A DNA stretch of 64,000 bases from Octopus vulgaris. Lineage: Eukaryota. The notes beneath the pieces were generated by a model. The model was not told the origin of the DNA. It saw only the letters and a list, made by a program, of their open reading frames with translations, and made no database searches. A program made the translations under genes and the position numbers. Location of the stretch: the NCBI GenBank assembly GCA_951406725.2, contig OX597817.1, positions 34,348,001-34,412,000 of the forward strand. The letters are read 5' to 3'. Positions 27,126 to 62,190 of the stretch are shown piece by piece; the first letter of the stretch is position 1; every line of letters starts with the position of its first letter.

Positions 27126-27452
27126 ATAACTTAGAAGGTCATTATTTAGAAGTAATGATGGCTGGCAACACAATAAGCTTTGAAAAGAAAATAATTTCCT
27201 GTATCATACACGTAGTATCAAAGTAGTCTAACACCTGATTCCAACATTTAATTACAGCTATTTTGTTTTAGACATTTTGCTAATGTCCTTCATTAAGATA
27301 TATTTATTATATAATGTTCATAAGACTGTTAGCAAAGAATGATTGTGATTTCACGATTTTATATTTTGTTTCTTTTTGTTTATTTCTTCTTTAGACGCGA
27401 GAAGTGGGCCCGTGATCGCCATCGACAGCATCAACGTGGAGGTCAGCTCAGA

Positions 27453-27600
27453 ATGGGAGCTGATGAAAGCAAAGCTGGTAGATATGACTTGATGGGAGCC
27501 AGTGCTGTTGTCGGGAACATGAGGAGGATGGCAGAACAAGCACAGCCATGGGCGCTGTTACATCAGTGCTCACTAGAACAGTGGAAATGTGGACATGCAG
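27453..27600 (+). CDS. First identified coding exon of a SOCS-box protein (exon 27395-27600; probable start MGADESK)
   Basis: Polypyrimidine acceptor tttcttctttag| before 27395; donor GCAG|gtaaca at 27600/27601; ATG at 27453 has A at -3 and G at +4; GC-rich versus flanks; phase-1 end matches the phase-1 start of exon 36457. The frame is also open back to the acceptor, so an upstream coding exon cannot be excluded. Confidence 0.72.
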
Positions 27601-28239
27601 GTAACAAGTAATTTAAATTTTAGAGAGAGAATCACAGAGTGTGTGTGTGTGTGTGGTGGGGTTATTATAAATGTCTTATAAATCTTGCAAAGATTTTAAA
27701 GGCTGGTATTTAGAGGATCAATCCAATATCTATGCCTGAATTGAGGTAGGTTGATAATCCATATGTACATCGAATTATAAGCAGCAAGTTTGAATTGCAA
27801 GACCCATTATTAGGTACTTCAGTACCATATTCATTTGACCAAATACCATAATCTCAAAAAATGGTAGCTGTAGCCATCACAAAAGGCCACATCTTTTACA
27901 CTACAGTGACCATTTGTATGATTTCTACAACCCTACATCAAATACCATTTGTCTTGTTTTTTGTTCTTGTGAACTTCTGTCAAGCATAAGAACCTCCCAA
28001 TAAACTTGCCCATCTATGTCTCATTAAACCAACAAGGGAACCTGTGCATGGTTGCTTGACCTGCTAGATACAGCAACAAATTTCTCTCAAATTATACTTT
28101 GCCATCTTTTAAAAAAAAAGACAAAGAAAACTGAAAGATGCATAGAAAAAAAGTAGCCTTAGATACACTCTGCCTGAAAATAAGGATGGTCACAGTTGGA
28201 GTGTCTTTGATCACAGGTCAGGTTAACAACTTGTCTTTG

Positions 28240-29250
28240 TTATCTAGGATTGATAGTTTCCTCTCAGACCGCTTCATTGCATGTATGTCAATGGTACCCT
28301 CCTCAACAACACATCCTATTATCTCTGTTCTTTTCCAGAGTTTTATTATGTTCCCCATACTCCTCCTTCTCTACATCACTTAACCAGTATTGCTAAACAA
28401 GCATAACATTATGAAGATGATATCACATTTGACTCCTTGATAACATTTTGGCACTTATCTCTCATCCAACTACAGTCTAGACAGACACTCTACACATATA
28501 CTCATATGTTCCAATGAGTATACAGCAATTATAAAAATCTTCCAATGAGCATACAGCAATGACATCCTTTAACAAAAATCTTCTATTTAGTATACAACAA
28601 TGACATCCTTTAACAAAATCAAAATAGTTACTACATATCACTTGGAAATACACTTACATTATCATACACTCCTTTTTTTCTCAACAACACATAAACTAGA
28701 ACTATCACCGTTGTCTTCATATTTGCTAGACAACTCAATGACTAATGACATCTCATTGTTGCCTTGTATTTATCACGGAATCAAAATTTCATCTCAAAGT
28801 TAACCCTTTAGTGTTCGCATTATTCTACCAAAATTAATGCTTTTTCATCCACATTGTTTTGAACTAATCATGCATTACCTTGTAGTTATGAGATTTTGAT
28901 GAGGTAACTGTTAATTTTTAAAACGATATTGTAGGGTTGGTGTGAGAGACCAGATCTGGCCAGTTTGAATATAAAACAGGCAGAACACTTTTGGCCGGAT
29001 ATGGCCGGTTTAAATGCTAAAGGGTTAAGGCTTCACTTTGTAACAGAAACTACTTCGTCTCTGAACAGCTGTTGTCTCTAAACCAGGGAAGATTTTACAC
29101 TTCACATTAAAGTGTCATTAACAAATTTGGGAGGAACCAGCTGTTACACACTTAAATATTTGTGACAACATCTAAAGCAACTCTTACATGTTGATTCTTT
29201 TCTAAGTTTCTTGTACCATTATTATTACTCTAACAGTCCTTCCACAGCAT
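28240..29250 (+). mobile_element. Degenerate CR1/Jockey-group LINE RT fragment interrupted by a MITE
   Basis: Remnants IDSFLSDR, FPILLLLYIT (SPxLFxLYIN-like), YEDD (YADD-like). Confidence 0.5.
28804..29024. mobile_element. piggyBac-like MITE with TTAA TSD
   Basis: TTAA|ccctttag ... ctaaaggg|TTAA; related copies at ~14817, ~29255 and ~33722. Confidence 0.8.
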
Positions 29251-29639
29251 CACTTGAATGTGATTGTTTATTTTTAGAATGTCATTGTAGGGTAGGTGTG
29301 AAAGGCCAGATCTGGCTGGTTTGAACATAAGACAGGGTAGAACATTTGGACCAGAGATGACTGTCTTAAATGCTAAATGGTTAAAGATTTTTTGCATATT
29401 TCTTACATTGAGTGACTTTTATAAAATATTACCAATTTTCATGTGTATGTCCATCATATCAATATAAAAATTTTGTAAATAAGAAAAAATTAGAAATTAA
29501 GAACATTTTATTGTTATATTTTGTGCATAGTTCAGAACATGAGTGAAATTTCATCTTAGAGTCTCTTCTTATATATGTTATCTATGTAGGGTACTGGAAT
29601 GGGGGTCTAGGAGTCAAGTGTGAGGAATTCTATTGAATC

Positions 29640-30031
29640 ACTCTTTTACTTGTTTCAGTCATTTGACTGTGGCCATGCTGGAGCACCGCCTTTAGTCGAG
29701 CAAATTGACCCCAGGACTTATTCTTTGTAAGCCTAGTACTTATTCTATCAGTCTCTTTTGCCGAACCACTAAATTACGGGAATGTAAACACACCACCATT
29801 GGTTGTCAAGCGATGTTGGGAGAGGGGGACAAACACAGACACACACACACATATATATACACATATACAACGAGCTTCTTTCAGTTTCCATCAGCCAAAT
29901 CCACTCACAAGGCTTTGGTCGGCCTGAGGTTACAGTAGAAGACACTTGCCCAAGGTGCCACGAAATGGGACTGAACCTAGAACTATGTGGTTGTTAAGCA
30001 AGCTACTTACCACACAGCCACTCCTACGCCT
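29640..30031 (-). mobile_element. SINE family A, full length (intronic)
   Basis: A consensus. Confidence 0.85.
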
Positions 30032-30177
30032 ATATTGAAAAGAATTCTTTTGATTTGAATAGCAAATTTATGTTCAGGATATGGCCAGCTCTGTGCTCTT
30101 GTATGTATTGTTTTGTGAAAGGAATTTTTTTTGTGTCAAAACATTTTATCTTTCTTTTTTATTCAGAAAATGGTCAG

Positions 30178-31024
30178 CTGCATGTATATATTGTGTTAAA
30201 TATATACTTGCATCATTGGGGGGGTCAAGAATTTTATTATAATTGATTGGCAAGTTCCTTTCTTATTGAGAATATGGTCAGTTGTGTGTATATATTGTGT
30301 TAAATGGATTTAAAGGCTGGTCAGCAATTTTATTGAAAGGGTTTGGAAGGAATTATTTTCTATTTGCTTTGTGGTGTGCATCTGTGTGTATGTGTGTGTG
30401 TGTGCACGCGCGCACTTTGTTTTTTGAGAATATGTTGTTTTGTATGTGTGTTTTTTTTATTGAAATGAATAGTAAAATTCTTTTCCATCTGTGTTTACAA
30501 CTAAGATATCTAGAAAGGCAAGTTCCTTGGGGTTAAAATCCATTGTGAATTGGATGTTGTTGCTTAGGTTGAGAAAATAGAAATGGACATATTCTATAAA
30601 CCCACAGACTCCAAGCAGTATCTTTTGTTCACATCATGTCACCGAAAAGACTAAGTGAATATGTACAATAGTATCAGGTCCATCTCAGCATGAAAAAACT
30701 GGATGAACTGAAGAACATACTTATCCAAAGAGCGTTTCTGCTCGGCAAAAACAGCATTTTATTGCTGCCAATAAAACAACAAATTCCCAAAAGACAAAAC
30801 AAAATATTCCCAAAAAACGAAACACACACACACAGCACAAAGAAGAAAATATTATTCCTTCCAAGCCCTTTCAATAAAATTGTTGACCAGCCTTAAAATG
30901 CATTTAACACAATATATATACACAGCTGACCACATTCTTAATAGAAAAGGAAGTTGTTGTTCAATTCAATAAACTTCTTGATCCCCCCGCCCCCGAAATC
31001 TGTTTAACACAATATATACATGCA
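30178..31024. repeat. Long imperfect inverted repeat / foldback element (arms ~30178-30480 and ~30750-31024)
   Basis: For example tatatattgtgttaaatggatttaaaggctggtcagcaattttattgaaagggtttggaaggaat versus attccttccaagccctttcaataaaattgttgaccagccttaaaatgcatttaacacaatatata. Confidence 0.8.
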
Positions 31025-31026
31025 CT

Positions 31027-31074
<48 letters not shown>

Positions 31075-31191
31075 ATATGTAATATATTGATAGAAATGGT
31101 AAGACAATAAAAGAATGAAAGAGACCTCGATATTATGCAAATAGAGGAATTTATCTGTAACTGTAATATATGACAATTATTCAGTAGCCAG

Positions 31192-31252
31192 GATAAAACT
31201 ATGAGTTTCGGATGTCAGGGTGGAAATCTATACCGCCATCTCTTCAGTTATC
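31192..31252 (-). ncRNA. Type I hammerhead ribozyme motif (left arm)
   Basis: Minus strand gataa-CTGAAGA-gatg..catc-c-GAAAC-tcata-GTT-ttatc. Confidence 0.65.
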
Positions 31253-31318
31253 TGGCCATCGGAAAAAATGCTATGAAAATGAAAAGGGTCATTTTCATAA
31301 CATTTTTTCCGATGGCCG

Positions 31319-31371
31319 GATAACTGATGAGATGGATTTCCACCCTAACATCCGAAACTTGGAGTTTTATC
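31319..31371 (+). ncRNA. Type I hammerhead ribozyme motif (right arm, sense to the host intron)
   Basis: gataa-CTGATGA(31324-31330)-gatg..catc-c-GAAAC(31354-31358)-ttgga-GTT-ttatc; stem I gataa/ttatc. Confidence 0.7.
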
Positions 31372-31794
31372 ATGGCTACCGAATAATTGTCACATTTACA
31401 GATATATATATATATATATACACACACACACCCTCTTAACAGTCTAACTTCTATTGGCTACCAAGCTCCTTCAAAGGCCTGCCAGACACCAAGGTGCCAC
31501 CAGCTACCTGTCCAGCTATGTGGTCTAATCCTCCCTTCTAATGCATCTGGTGTCATTGAAATACCAATCTCACTTGTGACCTACCTTGACCAATAGCACC
31601 CCATTTTCCACTAACCATCTTCAACAATCGGTAATCTGAGCTTGAATGAGCTACCTTTCAGTAAAAAGCCTGCAAAACTTTATGGTCACGTGGAACCAAA
31701 TCAAACTGTCTTAAATAATAACACACACACACATACATATATGTATATATATATATATATATCTATTTATCTATCAATCTATATATTTCAGTCT

Positions 31795-31836
<42 letters not shown>

Positions 31837-31949
31837 ATGTATGTATATATATATATATATACATTTTCAAAATGTAACTACATGTGGATCGTTGGTGATT
31901 TTTTTTCCCCCTCTGTTTTCGTTTTCTCTTGGTCTGTCCTCTGTCTCTT

Positions 31950-31984
31950 GTTTCTGAAGAAGTGCTATGCTTGAAATGTAAAAC
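31950..31984 (+). ncRNA. Minimal type I hammerhead motif (Penelope-like, partly decayed)
   Basis: gttt-CTGAAGA-agtgctatgctt-GAAAT-GTA-aaac; stem I gttt/aaac; the downstream ttccttccctgag tail recurs inverted at ~57865-57890. Confidence 0.55.
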
Positions 31985-32099
31985 TACTTTTCTTTCCTTC
32001 CCTGAGAATCTATAAATACTGTGCATGTACCATGTCATCACATTGTTGTTTTTTTCTTGTGTTTTTTCTTCATTTTTTTTAAATTATAAATATATATAT

Positions 32100-32490
32100 A
32101 GGCGCAGGAGTGGCTGTGTGGTAAGTAGCTTGCTTATCAACCATATGCTTCCGGGTTCAGTCCCACTGCATGGTATCTTGGGCAAGTGTCTTCTGCTATA
32201 GCCTCGGGCCGACCAAAGCCTTGTGAGTGGATTTGGTAGACGGAAACTGAAAGAAGCCTGTCGTATATATGTATATATATATGTGTGTCTGTGTTTGTCC
32301 CCCTAGCATTGCTTGACAACCGATGCTGGTGTGTTTATGCCCCGTCACTTAGCGGTTCGGCGAAAAGAGACTGATAGAATAAGTACTGGGCTTACAAAAG
32401 AATAAGTCCCGGGGTCGAGTTGCTCGATTAAAGGCGGTGCTCCAGCATGGCCGCAGTCAAATGACTGAAACAAGTAAAAGAGTAAAGAGT
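32100..32490 (+). mobile_element. SINE family A, young, full length (intronic, sense)
   Basis: ggcgcaggagtggctgtgtggtaag ... gactgaaacaagtaaaagagtaaagag; inserted in (TA)n. Confidence 0.9.
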
Positions 32491-32529
32491 ATATATATAT
32501 AAAATATGTGACAATTATTCGGTAGCCAT

Positions 32530-32590
32530 GATAAAACTCCGAGTTTCGGATGTCGGGGCAGAAATCCATGCCACCATCTCTTCAGTTATC
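32530..32590 (-). ncRNA. Type I hammerhead ribozyme motif, best-preserved copy
   Basis: Minus strand tggccggataa-CTGAAGA-gatggtGGCAtggatttcTGCCccgacatc-c-GAAAC-tcgga-GTT-ttatcatggcta. Confidence 0.72.
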
Positions 32591-32682
32591 CGGCCATTGG
32601 ATATTATATTTACAGATAAATTCCTCTATTTACATAATATCGAGGTCTTTTTCATTCTTTTGTTGTCTTATCATTTCTATCA

Positions 32683-32714
<32 letters not shown>

Positions 32715-33224
32715 GAGAGTTCCTAGAGATAAAATAATTCCTTATAAGAAACACACTTAATCTAATAAATATATCAAGCAGCTGCAGAAAGCCAGAGGGA
32801 TAACAGCACAGTGAATGAATGATATGAATGTAATTACATACAAGATGCATGACTGATTAAAGATTATGCATGTCTGCATAACGAACACACAAGGATCAAA
32901 CCACAAAATCAAGATGAACGAATTTATAAACAAACAAACCAAAAAAACAGAGAAGATATTTTATTCTCTTTTCTATTTTATTCCCTTTTGATGCCAACCT
33001 GCCTGAAACCAAAATTTTAATCTCATATTTAAATTAAAACCTTACATCAGAAAATTTTATGTAACAGTCTTTTTGTTTTGTGCCAAACGCTAACTTAATA
33101 ATGCAAAACTTGTTTTACTAAATCCCTCCAAATACTTGATTATTTTCAAAATTAATTTAAACAGCGGTTATGTATTTTATATGAAATGTGGTTATGAAAG
33201 GGTTAAAGATGCAGTATATTTATT

Positions 33225-33560
33225 TACTCTTTTACTTGTTTCAGTCATGTGACTGTGGCCATGCTGGAGCCTTTTAGTCAAGCAAATCGACCCCAGGACT
33301 TACTCTTTGTAAACCTCGTACTTATTCTATTGGACTCTTTTGCCGACCCACTAAGTTACGGGGACAAACACACACACATACATATATATATATATATGAC
33401 AGGCTTCTTTCAGTTTCCGTCTACCAAATCCATTCACAAGGCTTTGATCGGCTCGACACTATAGTAAAAGACATTTGCCCAAGGTGCCATGCAGTGGGAC
33501 TGAACCCGGAACCATGTGGCTCGTAAGCAAGCTACTTACCACACAGCCACTCCTACACCT
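33225..33560 (-). mobile_element. SINE family A
   Basis: A consensus with an internal deletion. Confidence 0.8.
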
Positions 33561-33721
33561 ATATAAAGATGTAGTGTCAAATTGTTCCTTTCAGTGTTAT
33601 TTTGTTTTAGCATATTCAGTTTATAATACAAAGGTCATAACAAAAAACATGGATCCTCTTTCTGTACACAGCCATTTTTCACCCTCCAAAAGAAGGGAAA
33701 AAAACTTTCTGTCTTGGTTGG

Positions 33722-33943
33722 CTCTTTAGCATTCAAACTGGCCATATCCTGCCAAAATATTCTACCTGTTTTATGTTCAAACTAACCAGATCCAGTCTCT
33801 CTAACCTACCCTACAATGTCATTTAAAAAAAATAAACTGACATGTCGTTCGATTCGCAAAGCTATGAGATAATGCATGATCAATTCAAAGCAATGTGAAT
33901 AAGCATTACATTTGACAGAGTAACCTGATTGCTAAAGGGTTAA
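33722..33943. mobile_element. piggyBac-like MITE (opposite orientation to the 28804 copy)
   Basis: ctctttagcattcaaactggccatatc ... gctaaagggttaa. Confidence 0.65.
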
Positions 33944-34817
33944 AACTAGAGAGAAAAAAACTTAGAAGTGATTCTCTCCCTTTAAGCACAGAACCCCCCC
34001 TCTCTCTCTCTCTCCCTCCCTCCCTCTCTCACTGCCATGATAGCAGTCTCCAGGAGAACAGAAAAACACCTTCCTTATATGTATATCATAGAATTAAAAT
34101 TCCAAGATAATGATTCCTTTGAAGTATGTGTTACTATAGTGTCAGTGGATGTGTGATGAGCAGATTAGGAATTCCAAAGGCATTCCTATAGGGTTATTGT
34201 GTTTGTTCTTATTACCATTTTGAAACTTTTATTATAATCACTTGTAGTGTTTTGTGACCTGACTTTTTTTGCTAATGCAACAGGGTAGGTTGAAGTGACA
34301 GGAAAATAGTGAATGAGAAATATTTTGATAACCGGTGTTATGAGAGCTGATATGATGATATAATTAATATACTGGAAGATTACTGATCTCAAGAGACTCA
34401 CAGATAACTGTGTGTGTTGATAAGAGGCCTGCTTATCAACTTAAGGCTTAATGATCTGTATCATGATACTCATAATACACTTTCTCTGGAAAAAAAAAAT
34501 CTCTTAACTTGACATGACCTGGTATGTTTAGTTGCAAATTAGGCTGTAGATGTTGCGGTTTGGCCTCAAGTTAGCTTCAAGTTAGTCACAAAATGATCAA
34601 AGACATTCCAGCCATAACCAGCCTTTCTTTGTTAAATTATAGTGTACAAGCCAATATAACCTTGCATTTTTCGTTGGATGTGATTTGAGGAAGATTTGAT
34701 GGGTGTTTCTAGCAGATTGCAGAAACATATAGATGTGCCCTCATTGGTCATTATAGCTATTGACCTATGATTAAAAGCATTTTGATCATAACCATCCTGT
34801 CTTTTGTGGGGTGTATA

Positions 34818-35202
34818 CACTCTTTTACTTGTTTCAGTCATTTGACTGTGATCATGCTGAAGCACCGTCTTTAGTCAAGCAAATCAACCCCAGGACTTAT
34901 TCTTCATAAGCCTAGTACTTATTCTATCGGTCTCTTTTGCCAAACTGCTAAGTTACGGGGATGTAAACACACCAGCATCGGTTGTCAAGCAATGTTAGGG
35001 GGACAAACACAGACACACAAACACACACACATATATACGACAGGCTTCTTTCAGTTTCCGTCTACCAAATCCACTCACAAAGCTTTGGTCGGCCTGAGGC
35101 TTTAGTAGAAGACACTTGCACAAGGTGCCACGCAGTGGGACTGAACCCGGAACCATGTGGTTGGTAAGCAAGCTACATACCACACAGCCACTCCTTGCAC
35201 CT
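34818..35202 (-). mobile_element. SINE family A, full length
   Basis: A consensus. Confidence 0.85.
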
Positions 35203-35877
35203 AATATGGTTACATTATCTGCTGTTCTACATACCCCATGGTGGTTAGGTATGATTTTTGGGAAATTTGGTTGCTATTTCTAGCAGATCAAGCAACAACA
35301 TAAAGGCTCCTGTTTTTTTTTTTATTAATTTATATTAATTAGCATAATATACTAAAGTTCACCTAAACTTAATGACGAGAGTTAGTGTTTTACTATCTCA
35401 CTCTCTTATGTAACTATAAATCTATTGGCACTCAAGCCACTTCCTGTGAGTTAAAAGACTGACCATTCACTGAGTCCACAGTGGCTCTCTCTATTAGACA
35501 CTGCCAGGACCATTGGAGTATGTTTGTGTAAAACAAAGGTTGGTTACTAAGAGATTAATGAAATGTGTGCAGAAGACAGGACTACACAAGTTTAAACGTG
35601 TGATTGTGAGAGAATAGAGTTTATTAAGCAAAAAGTAGATGAGATTTGAGGGTGATAGTCTCCCATAAAAATGGTAGATTGAGGGAGAGTTGGTAGGTGG
35701 TAGTTTGATCAGACCTTAGAATACTAAATGATTGAATACGAAATGATTGAAGGCTTCTTTGTGGTAGTAATTCAGTTATGTTGTTGTTGTTGTTTAGCCC
35801 ATGGTCAGGCACTGATTGAGCAGACCTACTATCAAGCTCATCATCATCATCATCACCACCACCACCATCATCATTAA

Positions 35878-36262
35878 GGTGGCAAACTGGCAGAACCATT
35901 AGCATGCCAGGTGAAATGCTTAGTGGTATTTCATCTGCCGTTACATTCTGAGTTCAAATTCTGCTGAGGTCAACTTTGCCTTTCATCCTTTCAGGGTCAA
36001 TTAAATAAGTACCAGTTATGCACTGGGGTCGATATAATCAACTTAATCCGTTTGTCTGTCCTTGTTTGTCCTCTCTGTGTTTAGCCTCTTGTGGGTAGTA
36101 AAGAAATAGGTATTTCATTCTCAGTTCAGATTCTGTCAAGGTTGGATTTGATTTTCGTCTTTTCAGGGTCAAGGAAATAAGTACCAGTCAATTACTGGGG
36201 TCAATGTAATCAGCTAGGCACCCTCCCACAAAATTTCAGGTCTTGTGCCAATAGTAGAAAGG
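35878..36262 (+). mobile_element. SINE family B, dimeric form
   Basis: B monomer followed by a second core copy with the ..caaaatttcaggtcttgtgcc tail. Confidence 0.8.
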
Positions 36263-36456
36263 TTTATTATTATTATTATTATTATTGCATGTCTTTTGTA
36301 TAGTGTTTCACATATTACATGTTTTTTCATTACATATTATGTGAAAGAAACATTTCTTTTTTCAGTTTCTCTTTTTATTGTATAATGAATTTTTGTTTTC
36401 CTTTGAAATATAATTTAAAGTTATTAATGGAAGTTTAATGTTTATGTCTATTTCAG

Positions 36457-37583
36457 AAGCCACTGGTTTTGGTGACTCCCTTCTAACATGTGATGGCTTG
36501 GTTTTTAAGGACTGTAGTCCCGCTTTCTGCACAAGTCGACAAGGGATCATTGATATAAACAAAAGTAACTCGTTTTTCAGTTTTCGACGCAGAAGCAAAT
36601 TTATCAAAATGGCAGAACATTTCGAGTACAACCATATTCCTGCCCAGTTGTCTTCGATTCAAAATTTCCATGTCAAAAGTGTATTATGTTACCATGACAA
36701 CTTAGTCATCCTTCATCTTGTACAGAATATGATGACTCAATTTGGAGTCATAGATTTGAGTATTAATAAATTTCTTGGACATTTCGGTAAACAGAATGTG
36801 GAATTTGTGAATGAAGCTTTATGGGGTGAACTGAGTTCTGACGACTCAACATGTTTGATAAAATTTCCAAATCTCCGTGGAGACAACAGCGCATCTGTCT
36901 TTCAGCTTTACAACATTAAAACCAAACAGCTGATTAGTGAAGTTAGTTTACCTTACAGTCACTCATTATTTGCATTTGATCCTAGATTTGGAAACCTCCG
37001 TCTTGCTGTAACCAGCTTCAGACGAGATGAAGATAACTCACTTAGTCTAGTTCGAACAGACATCTGGGAAACCGTGTCATTCAACACTCAAATTGATGTT
37101 TTCCGTGATATGCAGCGACTGAAATTGAAAAACCTGGTGTACTCAAAAGACGGCTTGCTGATATTTGCAATAATGATGACAGGTGGCTGTTTTTGTCGTG
37201 AGAAAAAAAGTCGCAAATATAATGCCCTTACAATGGCTGTTTACGTATTTGACGGAGATACTTCACAAACACTATATTGTATTCAGTATATTAGATTTAT
37301 ATGTGGTCTGCATTCATGTCCTGTTAATTTTATGCCTGTTTTTTCTAACTGTGGTGATCGCATGGCCCTGGTTCTTAATGTGCCAGATTCTTCGACAGAT
37401 CATATCCATGTTTACAAGCTTCCCAACAAAGGTAACCTTCAGAACCGTTGCCGTACAAGAATTTTACAATACTTTTCTCCAGAGATGATTCCTCGTCTGC
37501 CATTACCTCAAAAACTTTTGGACTATTTACAATTCAAACCAGAATATGTTCAGCCCCCACCTCTTGTGTGTTCCAGATCTTAA
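36457..37583 (+). CDS. Terminal coding exon of an uncharacterised beta-propeller-like / SOCS-box protein
   Basis: 1127-nt stop-free frame in non-repetitive sequence; acceptor tctatttcag|AA (phase 1); BC box NLQNRCRTRIL and Cul5 box LPLPQKLLDYL; WD40-like motifs (ELSSDDS, FAFDPR, LVYSKDG, VYVFD, PVFSNCG); stop TAA 37581-37583. Confidence 0.9.
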
Positions 37584-40125
37584 ATACTTTCGAATAACAA
37601 AACAGTACAGAAATTTAAAAAACAAAAAAAAAAAACAAGATGAATAGATGAGGAATGGAAATTCAAATGGAAGAAGATAAAAGAGACTTTTATAAATGTG
37701 CAAAAACACTCAAGGAACAATCATATTTTTTTTTAATTTCGAAAAATATTTACTTTGTATTCACAGATATATTTATGTGATGTGATGTAAATGATACATC
37801 CCTGATGAGGTATGGGATTTACCAATTATGTCTTAAGTACATGTGATATATATATGATCTATGAGATATTTTGAAATGATATATGGGATTTATCTGCATA
37901 CATGACACAACACCAACACAATATACATACATACATCGGATAAACCACACTGACACTACTACAAAGGATTTATCTAAATAGTATATCTAAATATACTTAG
38001 TAATATTCATGTGAAATACCAAATATGATGATGAATTTTAAAAACCTTGATATACGTTTGATAAGTGTGAAAATGTCTTTTCTGGTTAGTCTATTGATTT
38101 ATACTAAAAAAATATGATGTGGAAGATATTTTCATGATATATATATATATATATATATAAGAACGAATACACATGCATTTCTGCATGCACACACTCACAC
38201 AAAAACAGACACATACACACTTCTGAAGCATACATATTTATATGCATACATGCTTCAATAAATAAGTACATTGATGTATATATATATATAATAATATACC
38301 AACATACATAAACATAATACAATATCCAGATACTTATGCACACTTACATTAATACATATTTGCATGCATACGTACATACATAATTCTGTGAGAATCCATG
38401 GGATACACTTGAAATCTCGGTGAATGAAAATTAGATATGTCTATACAAACGTCATGTGCTTTGCTTTAAAGAAACTCCTTGGGTGCAAAATTTTTGCATG
38501 GAACCAATCAATGAATTTTAGCAAATAAATACAGGAAAGCAAATCAAAATTACTTTACTAAGTCAACCTAGTCCTCCTCCACAACCCCCAATCCCAAATT
38601 TAAATCTTCTCCTTAAAATTTGATTTATACCTATTTTCGTAGGGTTTTGGTGCTCATCCCTGTTTCGGTACAACCAAATTACTCAAGACAATGATATCGT
38701 TGTTATGCTACTTTAAGCCTTAACATTAATACACGCACACTTCAAAATTCTCTCTTTCTTCCCCCGCCCCCCACATACATACACATACACACCAAAGTCC
38801 AAATGTTAAAACCATAATGTTTTAATTTATTGGAAGTACCAGGTGAAGAAAGTTAATACATATCTGGTATATAAATCATATAAAAAAAAAGTACAAAACA
38901 AGCAACAATATTACTGAGTTTCAAAAAAATACTAAGTTATCAGGTGTTTAATGTATGTTTGTGTGGCAAGTGTGATATAAAACGGAGCACCACTCCTTTG
39001 TTCAGATAAATTTTCAGTAAATAGAAATAGGAGTTGTTGGTGTTATTCTAGTTTTCTTTGCCTTGTTTTAATTAAGGTCTTTGATTCAATTTCGGCATAT
39101 ACTTTCGACTAGTCTTTCAGTCTTCCCCTCACTGACCATAACCCTCTCAAGTCAAACATCATAATCTCTAGTATCATAACTCCATATTTTCTTAAAACAT
39201 TTAGAAGTCCTTAGGCAAAGCAGAAACTTGGTCTATACTATTTATTGAGTGTGAGCAAACCACAATATATATGCTTAACATTGGACCCTTAGATCTGTGA
39301 GGCCTCCAAGTAACCTACCCAGTATGCCCATGCTTTATGATGGCTCTACTTGTAGCACTTTTAGACATTATTGGTGGCATAACAGCTTAAACCCATTATA
39401 TTTTTCCTTCTATATTGTAATATTACAGAAAGAACAAAGTCCATAGTTTGAAGTCCTTCCTGGCAAAAAAATATTGGGTGATTATTTTTGTTGATTTACT
39501 TTTATTTTTATGATTAAAATAAATCAAGATATGGAGAAAAATTTTTTTTAAATTAATCCTTCTGTTTCATTGAAATTAATTTAAGTCATTAATTTATGTA
39601 TCACATATAAGTGTGATAGAATCAATTGCCCACATTAAAAAAAAATTTTTTTTGTTATCAGAGACAGCCATTAAGGAATAACCTTTTTTTATTGGTTTAA
39701 AAAATAGGAGATATTGATGCTTATGTTTCCTTTTTCTCAAAGATACTGTCTATTTCATTTTTTTTTTAAATTAATGTCGTAATATAAATTTTAAAAATTA
39801 GCTATAACTTGAAATCAAAACTTAGTTGCTATCACAACTTACAAAAAACTTAATTTCTACAATATGGTTCTAGTAGTTGATCAACTCTATACAAAAATGC
39901 AAACTTTCAAAAAGAAAGACATTCAAAATTCTACATTATAGTGAGGCAGATGGAAACAGGTGATACATCAATTAACATCTAACAATCAACAAGGTATTAT
40001 TGTTGCTACATCAAAGTAGAAAGCTGGTGAAACCAATGCCAGACAAGATGCTTAGCAGTGTTTCTTCCAGCTCTATACATCCTAAGGTCAAATTCTGCCA
40101 AGCTCAACTCTATCTTTCAACCTTT

Positions 40126-54114: not shown

Positions 54115-55271
54115 TACGAGATGGTATCAAAAAGTTCCCGTACTAGTTATGTTTAATAAAAAAAAAATTATTTACCTAAGTTTTAGCATCATCTCATTCG
54201 AAATAGTCCCCTTGCTCAGCAATACACCGGTCCCAGCGTTCCTGTCACTTTTGGAATCCGCCCTGGAAGTCGTTTTCCGTGAGTTGAAGACCGTCTCCGG
54301 TCCGTTCTTAATCTCGACAACGGTGTTAGAACGGCGACCTTTGAGCTGGATATTCATCTTGGAGAAGAGATGGAAGTCTGAAGGTGCTAAATCTGGCGAA
54401 CAGGGCAGGTGCGGAAGCGACCATGATGTTTTTGATAAGAAACTCACGAGTGCTCGGTGACAGAGTGCATTGTCGTCGTGAAGAATCCAGACGTTAAGAT
54501 TGCCTGCGCAGACCCATACGACAGACCAACAACATCAGCAATGTCGTTGATTGTCCTCTGATAATCCTCATGCACAAGCTGATGAAAAGTAATATTCTTT
54601 ATGTTGCATGTCTCGTTTCTCTGTTTATTCCGTTGTTCGAAAAAGAAGTTCGTTTTCTATCTTTTTGTTTTTATGTTTTCGTTTCTCATTGTGTTCAATG
54701 TATTTTTTATGTCCTGTACCCATATATGCATGTATATATATATATATATATGTAGGTATGTACATATATGTATGTATATATGTATATGTAGGTATGTACA
54801 TATATGTACGTATATATGCATATATTGATATATTATGCATATTATATATATATATTCACACACACAGATACATTTTCTTCACATTTCAGGTGGTACGCTC
54901 GTGGCCGATCTTCCAGATCGCTCATCGTCTTCCAGGGATATTTTCCCGCTTTTTAAGCGCCCGTGCCACTTGAAACATTGCGTACGACCCATAGTCACGT
55001 CTCCGTAAGCTTGCAGACCTCCCAAATTTAACACAAAATTTCACATTGGCTCTTTGTTCCAACTTCCTGTCCATGACAAAAATCGCAAACTACAACATAC
55101 ACGTGATCACAAAAACACAAATTTCACAACTTGCAAAGCAAACACAACGATGTTGCTCGGTACACTGCTTCATGAAGCTCATTGCTAGTTCTCACTGCGC
55201 TCGCAACCATGTGCTGCCATCTGTTGGCACGCTACGGAACTAGTCCGGAAAGTTTTTGAAACCACCTTGTA
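54115..55271 (-). mobile_element. Decayed mariner element (internally deleted, with a nested insertion at ~54560-54870)
   Basis: TIRs tacgagatggtatcaaaaagttcccgtactagtt / aactagtccggaaagtttttgaaaccaccttgta; minus-strand remnants MDRKLEQRANVKFC (ATG at 55074), KWHGRLKSG..LEDDERSGR, WILHDDNA, SPDLAPSDFHLF. Confidence 0.9.
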
Positions 55272-61026: not shown

Positions 61027-62190
61027 TGAGCCTACATTTGTGGATCATGGAATGCTTAGATCTGTTTGGAATTGCAAGAAATGAAACCTGTTTTCTGGAG
61101 AGAGGTATGATGGGATGGAAAAGGGAACTGACATCCTACGGAAAAAGCTTGGACATCCTGGCACTTAGGAAAATAAACCTGGTGTATTAGCTAAAGGGAA
61201 AATTCCAAACTATCAACCACCTCCTCTTCATAGATGATTTGAAACTGTATGGCAAAGATGAGACACAAGTGAGTTCCTTGGTGAACACAGTCCACTGTTT
61301 TAGTACTGATATTAGAAATGAATTTGGACTCAAGAAGTGCAGAGTAATCTATCTAAAAAGAGGCAAAGCACAGTCCCCAGTATGGATAGAATTACCAAGT
61401 AGAGACTTGATTAAGCAAATTGAAATGGAAGGATACAAATATCTGCGCACACTAGAGTTCAATGAAATAATGGAGAAGGAAATAAAAGTGCGACTGAGGA
61501 TGGAATATTTCCAAAGACTAAGATTGGTGCTGCATTCAAAACTGACCGTATGGAATAAAATCCAAACTGTTAATACCTGGGCAATATCATCACTTTGGTA
61601 TGGAGCTGGAATTATAAAATGGCAAAAGAAAGAACTGATTGAAATGGATACAAAGACAAGAAAAATGTTAACAGTACACAGAGCCTTCCACCCTAAAAGT
61701 GACACCAACAGGCTGTACTTGTCCAAAAGAAAGGATGGGAGAGGTTTGTTCTGTTGCCAGGATTGTATCAAAACAGAGGAAAACAGCTTAGGGTGGTATG
61801 TAAAAATACTCATGCCAAGAAGGCTGGTGTCATCAAAACTGAGAATTGTGTAACTAAACAAAAATTTAAAGAGGAAAAGACCACAAAATAAGAAACAGCA
61901 TAGAAAGGTAAAAAAAAAGTGTATGGACAGTTTGCAAGAGACATAAATTCCAAGACAGATATTGAAGACCGGTGGCTGTGGATGAGGGAAAGTGATCTGA
62001 AGAAAAAGAGTATATCTACAGACAATTGCTTCAAAAACTCCGGCTTCTATATCCAGACTATGAATTCAAATTCATGCCAATAATAATTGGAGCACTGGGT
62101 TTTTTTAGTAAATACTTAAAGGAGAATCTGGATAAACTAGGATTTTCATAAAGAGAAATTGACCGGCTAATTCGTACATTACAAGTGTAA
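61027..62190 (+). mobile_element. R4/Dong-like non-LTR retrotransposon fragment (RT domain plus RLE C-terminus, internal deletion)
   Basis: INHLLFIDDLKLYGKD..FSTDI..FGLKKC..YKYL..FHPKSDTNRLYLSKRKDGRGL; VYGQFAR..WLW; LYPDYEFKFMPIIIGALG; preceded by (TAA)n at 61007-61026. Confidence 0.85.

What the first reader, a model, noticed from the sequence alone, without database searches (positions are those of the whole stretch)
27395..37583. Uncharacterised N-myristoylated, beta-propeller-like SOCS-box protein: candidate membrane-anchored Cullin5 E3 receptor
Seen: splicing 27600 to 36457 is in phase (G|AA = Glu) and gives ~424 aa starting MGADESK, with WD40-like strand motifs, a Cys/His cluster (GGCFC..ICGLHSCP..FSNCG) and a C-terminal BC box plus LPLP Cul5 box, ending CSRS. 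The ORF track misses the N-terminus. Established: MGxxxS/K is the N-myristoylation consensus, and SOCS boxes with LPxP recruit Elongin B/C-Cul5-Rbx2. Inference: it lacks SH2, ankyrin, SPRY and canonical GH-WD repeats, so it does not look like SOCS1-7, ASB, SPSB or WSB, and may represent an undescribed invertebrate family that ubiquitinates membrane-associated targets, possibly with a zinc site.
Basis: partly seen in the sequence, partly recalled or inferred. Interest (0 to 1): 0.75.

Follow-up and report, generated by a model that had tools for sequence, protein, structure and literature searches.

The report
Lipid-tagged ubiquitin-ligase adaptor family in invertebrates
This octopus gene belongs to a large, unnamed protein family of molluscs, worms and their relatives; its product likely carries a fatty-acid anchor and is predicted to pick membrane-associated proteins for destruction, and two of the gene's three start exons add a leader that would hide that anchor.

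Summary
The gene is real. The 27600|36457 splice gives 424 aa, identical to an Octopus RefSeq isoform. Transcript-like contigs of four studies and a processed retrocopy support the junction. MG-x-[ED]-E-S-[KR]-type starts occur in 36 of 38 N-complete orthologues (molluscs, nemerteans, annelid, brachiopod, flatworms). Among 50%-identity family representatives, 40 of 56 N-complete ones start Met-Gly, against 29 of 881 internal Mets. The SOCS box matches the published CUL5-box consensus. AlphaFold (pLDDT 87) gives about five propeller blades, the last likely completed by an N-terminal strand, with no close solved relative. One correction: the MG exon is internal. Three upstream exons 58-289 kb away feed it, and two carry an in-frame AUG that would bury Gly2, so only some isoforms can be myristoylated. 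The C-terminal Cys/His cluster is conserved in orthologues but not across paralogues, and a second cluster was missed. Best reading: a likely myristoylated CRL5 substrate receptor of an undescribed family, distantly related to WD40-SOCS proteins. The concept is not new: human PCMTD1 is both myristoylated and a CRL5 receptor. No substrate is known.

The parts
27395..27600 (+). Internal exon carrying the Met-Gly start; acceptor AG 27393-27394, donor GT 27601-27602
   Evidence: Sequence; covered end to end by contigs and reads
27395..27452 (+). Stop-free in-frame leader (19 codons, basic). Coding in isoforms that start in upstream exons a or c, 5' UTR in the isoform from exon b
   Evidence: RefSeq isoforms X1/X2 versus X3
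27453..27473 (+). MGADESK, predicted N-myristoylation signal; AUG has A at -3 and G at +4
   Evidence: 36 of 38 N-complete orthologues keep the motif; context
27549..27584 (+). Residues 33-44, W-x10-W motif; strand 35-40 likely completes the last propeller blade
   Evidence: W33 in 69 of 81 and W44 in 81 of 93 occupied rows of the 132-row alignment; strand in the model; its role is inferred
27601..36456 (+). 8,856-base repeat-rich GT-AG intron; tandem CAG/AAG acceptor at its 3' end
   Evidence: gene model P0096 lacks Glu50, the RNA laid here uses the proximal AG
36457..38127 (+). Large last exon: coding to the stop at 37581-37583, then 3' UTR to at least 38127 (a second contig covers 38170-38600)
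36489..36620 (+).
   Evidence: 58/58, 58/58, 59/59 and 69/69 occupied rows of the orthologue alignment; metal binding is inferred
36576..36611 (+). Residues 90-101, basic/aromatic low-confidence loop; candidate second membrane-binding signal
   Evidence: At least 5 K/R in 66 of 66 orthologue rows that cover it; pLDDT under 50 at 82-95 and 98-100
36609..36668 (+). Residues 101-120, two helices; the most conserved block in orthologues, candidate substrate-contact element
   Evidence: Mean identity to the Octopus residue 0.90, against 0.45-0.67 for the blades
36669..37418 (+). Residues 121-370, predicted beta-propeller: four full four-stranded blades plus a fifth
   Evidence: Secondary structure of the model; fold matches Z 12.7-15.6, rmsd mostly 4-5 A
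37188..37319 (+). C294, C296, C332, H335, C337: C-terminal candidate zinc site in neighbouring loops
   Evidence: 67-69 of 69 orthologue rows; only 12-21 rows of the 53-row mixed alignment
37431..37535 (+). SOCS box: BC box (L377, C381, R382, I385) and CUL5 box (I394-xx-LPLP-xx-L-xx-YL)
   Evidence: consensus from PMC13061254

Best explanation
The gene encodes a 424-aa protein with a conserved Met-Gly start, a predicted five-blade propeller and a CUL5-type SOCS box, and it likely acts as a myristoylated substrate receptor that would bring an Elongin B/C-Cul5-Rbx2 ligase to membrane-associated targets. Steps: (1) Shown: three alternative upstream exons splice to the MG exon and then to the large exon. 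(2) Inferred: the form from exon b, and probably leaky scanning past the weak AUG of exon c, starts at Met-Gly; Met is removed and NMT myristoylates Gly2. The forms starting in exon a or c keep Gly internal and would stay unmodified. (3) Inferred: myristate plus the basic loop 90-101 holds the protein on a cytosolic membrane face. (4) Predicted: the propeller top, with the Cys/His loops and helices 101-120, binds the substrate. (5) Inferred from established SOCS-box biology: the BC box binds Elongin C and LPLP binds Cul5, leading to ubiquitination and turnover of the target.
For: Gene structure. Motif: 36 of 38 N-complete orthologues, with Ser6 in 35 of 36 and Lys/Arg7 in 35 of 36, while residues 8-30 average only 0.40 identity. 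40 of 56 N-complete 50%-cluster representatives start MG, spread over many clades; control 29 of 881 internal Mets are followed by Gly. Ser6/Lys7 mark myristoylated N-termini (PMC12775124; PMC7048800). The SOCS box fits the CUL5-box consensus; 92 of the 123 rows with a BC-box-like motif, out of 132, fit it in full, and the family profile's best PDB hit is the SOCS4 SOCS box (E=2.4e-7). Fold: pLDDT 86.9, pTM 0.87; the top fold matches are propeller-containing chains. Precedent: FBXO27, FBXL7, PCMTD1.
Against: No biochemical evidence at all, and no substrate. Two of three first exons give N-extended forms, and their shares are unknown (only 13 raw reads were laid). Positions 4 and 5 are both acidic: my six-term look-up in one myristoylome table found site-identified substrates with acid at position 4 (PPP3R1, LOH12CR1) but none with acid at both. 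Glu5 is kept in 35 of 36 orthologues, more than NMT is known to need, so the motif may serve another partner. The Octopus SOCS box scores just under Pfam's cut-off. 11 of 56 N-complete representatives had no MG near the start by my rule. PCMTD1 is listed as cytoplasmic despite its myristate, so myristate need not mean membrane.
Confidence: 0.68

Rival explanations
1. It is a CRL5 receptor, but in cephalopods the main product is the N-extended, unmyristoylated form (soluble or nuclear through its basic leader and basic loop), and the MG form is minor.
For: Two of three first exons have in-frame AUGs. The retrocopy derives from the exon c transcript. The leader core KWARDRHR is kept in frame in Argonauta and in two unnamed sequences 87-90% identical to the Octopus protein. 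If exon b is as long as assumed, an out-of-frame 92-codon uORF overlaps the MG start.
Against: The exon c AUG has a weak context (TAG-AUG-A) while the MG AUG has a strong one. The leaders are not conserved between classes, and 29 of 36 orthologue representatives begin at MG. Selection keeps Gly2/Ser6/Lys7 in cephalopods too.
Confidence: 0.15
2. The protein is myristoylated, but the lipid is held inside the protein or by a partner (a myristoyl-switch or trafficking signal), so the ligase works largely off-membrane.
For: Unusually strict E4/E5 conservation; residues 11-60 pack confidently in the model (pLDDT 78-96 per block); residues 1-30 have net charge 0; PCMTD1 is listed as cytoplasmic.
Against: A conserved basic/aromatic loop is present, and several paralogues add Cys or basic residues next to Gly2, the usual second membrane signals (recalled).
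Confidence: 0.1
3. The SOCS box binds Elongin B/C only for stability or pairs with another cullin, and the protein is a scaffold or inhibitor rather than a degrading E3 receptor.
For: SOCS1 has an incomplete Cul5 box and no detected Cul5 binding (PMC4812663), so the box alone is not proof. The Pfam score is marginal.
Against: The full CUL5-box consensus is present here, and L397 and P400 are invariant in 69 orthologue rows.
Confidence: 0.07

Closest known systems
WSB1/WSB2 (WD40 + SOCS box CRL5 receptors)
   Same: Propeller followed directly by a C-terminal SOCS box, similar length (WSB2 cluster 421 aa)
   Different: No Pfam WD40 hit at E up to 1 in the window protein or 10 homologues; about five predicted blades; MG motif and Cys/His clusters; Atlas feature score to the WSB2 cluster only 0.76. 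That WSBs lack a myristoylation start is recalled.
TULP4 (WD40, SOCS, large disordered regions)
   Same: Propeller plus SOCS box, CUL5 receptor
   Different: This protein ends about 15 residues after the SOCS box; it lacks TULP4's long C-terminal part (tubby domain recalled).
PCMTD1 (human)
   Same: High-confidence CRL5 receptor (PMC13061254 supplement) with a site-identified N-myristoyl peptide (PMC4200515 supplement)
   Different: Methyltransferase-like substrate domain, not a propeller; no sequence link was found or tested.
FBXO27 and FBXL7 (SCF receptors)
   Same: N-myristoylated cullin substrate receptors; FBXO27 reaches damaged lysosomes through its myristate
   Different: F-box/CUL1 system with glycan-binding or LRR domains (domain types recalled).
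Uncharacterised hemichordate/echinoderm WD40-SOCS proteins (Saccoglossus P0306, Ptychodera P0323, Glandiceps P0324, Amphiura P0317)
   Same: Homologous over residues 120-412 (hhalign 99.4%, E=2.9e-21), sharing SPD and FDPR motifs; the three hemichordate proteins start MGN
   Different: They keep weak Pfam WD40 hits and appear by eye to have extra N-terminal blades; they form their own long-branch clade and are also unnamed.

Membership tests
SOCS-box / CRL5 substrate receptor | C-terminal BC box (L-x3-C-R-x2-I type) | tested here: met
   L377 124/126, C381 120/126, R382 125/126, I385 109/126 occupied rows; helix 377-388 in the model
SOCS-box / CRL5 substrate receptor | CUL5 box phi-xx-LP-phi-P-xx-phi-xx-Y/F-L | tested here: met
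   Residues 394-407 fit the consensus in PMC13061254; 92 of 123 BC-box rows fit in full
SOCS-box / CRL5 substrate receptor | Pfam PF07525 above the curated cut-off | tested here: inconclusive
   Octopus 22.3 bits against 23.5; 7 of 9 non-Octopus homologues pass; 29 of 31 wider members pass
SOCS-box / CRL5 substrate receptor | Binds Elongin B/C and Cul5 and ubiquitinates a substrate | not testable with these tools
   Needs co-IP and an in vitro assay; no complex was predicted
NMT substrate | Gly2, small residue at 3, Ser6, basic residue at 7 | tested here: met
   MGADESK; conservation; rules
NMT substrate | Gly is the N-terminal residue after Met removal | tested here: inconclusive
   True for the exon b transcript (in-frame stop 18 codons upstream, no in-frame AUG after it); not for starts in exons a and c
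NMT substrate | Myristate attached in cells | not testable with these tools
   Needs metabolic labelling or mass spectrometry
WSB1/WSB2 | Recognisable tandem WD40 repeats before the SOCS box | tested here: not met
   No PF00400 or ANAPC4_WD40 hit in 11 proteins at E up to 1, whereas the WSB2 cluster has PF00400 in 100% of members
WSB1/WSB2 | Groups with WSB sequences in a tree | not tested
   No WSB sequence came back from any search, so none was in the tree
TULP4 | Long C-terminal region after the SOCS box | tested here: not met
   Stop codon 15 residues after residue 409
SOCS1-7/CISH, ASB, SPSB | SH2, ankyrin or SPRY domain | tested here: not met
   No such Pfam hit; the model is a propeller
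Canonical seven-bladed WD40 propeller | Seven four-stranded blades | tested here: inconclusive
Zinc-binding site | Four Cys/His ligands meeting in space | not testable with these tools
   Only conservation and loop topology were available; no distances

The most novel reading that the evidence does not exclude
A large, ancient, undescribed class of lipid-anchored CRL5 receptors in which two blades of a WD40 propeller were replaced by a metal-binding helical subdomain. In cephalopods, choice among promoters spread over about 230 kb would act as a myristoylation switch that sends the same ligase to membranes or away from them.
Probability: 0.25. Interest if true: 0.72.

Novelty: new variant of a known kind. 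Interest (0 to 1): 0.5.

Why it matters
It would add a whole family of ubiquitin-ligase receptors to spiralian biology: at least 279 clusters at 50% identity, three intact genes in this genome, and one orthologue group reaching 50-64% identity from octopus to bivalves, annelids and brachiopods and present in schistosomes. None has a Pfam model beyond the SOCS box, and my searches found no functional paper. Such conservation points to a conserved substrate. The family offers a tractable test of lipid-directed cullin ligases, of an atypical propeller, and of promoter-controlled lipidation. The schistosome proteins are misleadingly annotated as 'cement precursor protein'.

Tried and rejected
PDB sequence search with the single protein found nothing useful (1 hit, E=0.82); with alignment A1, 2 weak hits. 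The first AlphaFold run on 69 close orthologues left residues 1-120 poorly predicted (pLDDT 72.4); it was superseded by the 132-row run. Foldseek's DCAF1/WDR61 top hits have TM 0.2-0.3 and rmsd over 11 A and are treated as generic propeller matches. No five-bladed propeller was recognisable by title among the 50 rows listed, which neither excludes nor supports that fold. The word-index search with the mixed alignment mostly returned orthologues again, and the hemichordate query gave 4 hits, no WSB and no vertebrate. Most paralogue representatives are unnamed (names for 3 and 2 of 10 asked), and 129 of 279 hits were not listed, so the taxonomic range is a lower bound. The Atlas nematode cluster (0.90) could not be checked; the unnamed-only Atlas search gave only bacterial rows under 0.8. 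No indexed holder was on record as RNA. The maximum-likelihood tree did not finish; FastTree was used, with five long branches flagged. The search of this genome with P0306 found only the two known loci. Pfam did not confirm the transposon-like ORFs. Earlier-findings searches returned nothing. No complex prediction was run: SOCS box-Elongin C is a textbook pair, so a pass would say little. A>G and T>C differences in the intron lie in repeats and come from cross-mapping contigs; they were not read as editing.
Full report
Observation. Splicing 27453-27600 to 36457-37583 gives 424 codons and one terminal stop. The product is identical to P0092, annotated as uncharacterised isoform X3 of Octopus LOC106883075/LOC115210808, so the window is from Octopus. 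In 4 of 4 runs from four studies one contig covers 27390/27395-27597 and continues at 36454-38127, the three-base offset being the shared CAG. These runs are guessed, not recorded, to be RNA, but the contigs skip the intron. Three raw RNA reads of run X23, a related organism, also continue into 36457. A broken copy on G000:C11 has the two exons abutting at exactly this junction, preceded by one upstream exon, so it is a processed retrocopy and independent evidence of the splices.

The MG exon is internal. All four contigs carry 222 or more further bases 5' of 27395. Loose ends led to three upstream exons, each ending in a GT donor. Exon a ends at G000:C4:34086370 and has two in-frame AUGs giving 451 or 448 aa; its support here is 4 reads of X23 that may be copies of one molecule, a contig of X8 that starts at the same place, and RefSeq X1. 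Exon b ends at 34136889 and has an in-frame stop 18 codons upstream with no in-frame AUG after it, so it gives the MG start (contig of X5). Exon c ends at 34317882 and has an in-frame AUG in a weak context giving 449 aa (contig of X1, RefSeq X2, the retrocopy). The 5' extents of a and b were assumed from contig lengths, so their uORF lists are provisional. Isoform shares could not be measured: only 7 and 6 raw reads were laid.

Orthologues. phmmer with the large exon gave 91 proteins of 1,320 candidates, from bivalves, gastropods, a chiton, nemerteans, annelids, Lingula and schistosomes, most at 48-63% identity. Of the 38 that reach the N-terminal motif, 36 have an MG-x-[EDQ]-[ES]-[SN]-[KRS] start, 29 at residue 1. 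The two misses are P0002, whose cluster mates do start MGAEESK, and a Nucella gene model. The next 23 residues average 0.40 identity, and the predicted leaders differ between classes, so selection is on the motif itself.

Wider family. A profile search found 279 clusters at 50% identity with E up to 0.001, of which 150 were listed. Of the 150, 56 were N-complete by my rule (profile match starting at position 40 or earlier): 40 start MG, 5 have an MG shortly inside, 11 have none by that rule. Among all 46 MG-starting rows, 33 have Ser/Thr6 and 27 Lys/Arg7. About a quarter of these rows are orthologues of the window gene and not independent. As a control, 29 of 881 internal Mets are followed by Gly, 3 with Ser/Thr at position 6. 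The FastTree tree of 72 chosen rows puts the window gene in a 22-row orthologue clade (SH-like 99) and shows MG starts in many other clades; deep branches are weak. This genome has two further intact members, at C7:4.08 Mb and C4:171.3 Mb, the latter starting Met-Gly-Ser-Cys; they were 2 of 30 SOCS-box loci scanned. Named paralogues come from Ridgeia, Lamellibrachia, Liolophura and Lingula. Hemichordate and brittle-star proteins are homologous over the last blades and the SOCS box and keep weak WD40 hits, which links the family to WD40-SOCS proteins. No named vertebrate or arthropod member appeared, but most rows are unnamed.

Structure. With 132 rows AlphaFold2 reached pLDDT 86.9 and pTM 0.87. 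Residues 41-120 hold a helix, a three-Cys stretch, a low-confidence basic loop and two highly conserved helices. Structural searches return WD40-type propellers with a flat ranking (Z 15.6 down to 12.7 over 50 rows, rmsd mostly 4-5 A) and Foldseek query TM at most 0.35. Because model residues 31-375 align across the first propeller of ELP1 (residues 4-377), I infer that 41-120 stands where two blades would be. C294/C296 lie in a b-c loop and C332/H335/C337 in the next d-a loop; such loops form the top, ligand-binding face of WD propellers (recalled), so a shared zinc site is plausible. C348 is in an a-b turn on the other face. C61, C69, C74 and H104 are invariant in orthologues and may form a second site. 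Both clusters are largely orthologue-specific.

SOCS box. The BC-box residues are near invariant, and residues 394-407 fit the CUL5-box consensus quoted in PMC13061254 (passages). The Octopus Pfam score is 1.2 bits under the cut-off. That molluscs have Elongin B/C, Cul5 and Rbx2 is recalled, not checked.

Mechanism. Shown: gene structure, isoform frames, motif conservation, SOCS-box consensus. Predicted: the fold. Inferred: myristoylation of the MG form, membrane binding helped by the basic loop, CRL5 assembly and substrate turnover. I give this 0.68. Doubts are the doubly acidic positions 4-5, unknown isoform shares and the lack of any substrate. [quoted passage not shown]

Comparison and novelty. 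It works like WSB1/2 in layout and like FBXO27 in targeting, but fails the WSB, TULP4, SOCS, ASB and SPSB membership features I could test. A myristoylated CRL5 receptor is not new: PCMTD1 has a site-identified myristoyl peptide (PMC4200515, supplement rows only) and is a high-confidence CRL5 receptor (PMC13061254 supplement rows). Other papers seen as passages only: PMC4812663, PMC12775124, PMC7048800, PMC12285598, PMC10357820, PMC4550359. A PCMTD1-cullin paper recalled from memory was not held. Searches for the family in print: six gene ids, 0 papers; SOCS box + WD40 + lophotrochozoa + expansion, 0; SOCS box/myristoylation/propeller/mollusc, 1 unrelated review listed; schistosome name and id, 1 paper; invertebrate SOCS/Elongin terms, 4 listings on other genes; two searches listed none on it, judged from titles and abstract starts. 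The library lacks most subscription papers, and gene ids in supplementary tables were not searched.

Verdict. A real, well-conserved, undescribed family; a new domain combination within a known kind of ligase receptor. Interest 0.5.

Noticed in passing
G000:C11:7637921-7638958 (L002, minus strand): Processed retrocopy of this gene (exon c + MG exon + first 632 bases of the large exon, 93-94% identical), with stops inside; a broken copy.
   Followed up: yes
G000:C4:171.30 Mb (L049) and G000:C7:4.08 Mb (L004/L050): Two paralogues; the C4 one is a single 431-codon open frame starting Met-Gly-Ser-Cys, a candidate for dual acylation. The 5' end of the C7 gene was not traced.
   Followed up: partly
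window 36454-36459: Tandem CAG/AAG acceptor; a public gene model (P0096) lacks Glu50, while the RNA laid here keeps it.
   Followed up: partly
window 37584-38600: 3' UTR runs to at least 38127, and a second contig continues from 38170 past 38600 across a TA repeat, so the UTR may exceed 1 kb.
   Followed up: no
P0006, P0009, P0012, P0019 clusters (gastropods): Gastropod orthologues also have many annotated 5' isoforms with short basic leaders before MG; the bivalve RefSeq models listed start at MG.
   Followed up: partly
ESM Atlas hit 3: An unnamed 381-aa cluster of 58 members, mostly nematode, scores 0.90 by features; a possible ecdysozoan branch, unverified.
   Followed up: no
P0082-P0091, P0171-P0174, P0318-P0321: Fluke orthologues are longer (534-855 aa) and some are annotated 'cement precursor protein 3B', likely a mis-annotation.
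   Followed up: partly
window 61191-61853 (+) and 54172-54534 (-): ORFs that look by recalled motifs like LINE reverse-transcriptase and mariner transposase remnants; Pfam gave no such hit at E up to 0.01.
   Followed up: partly
window 28724-36343: Several intronic stretches draw very deep cross-mapping of contigs, consistent with high-copy transcribed interspersed repeats.
   Followed up: no
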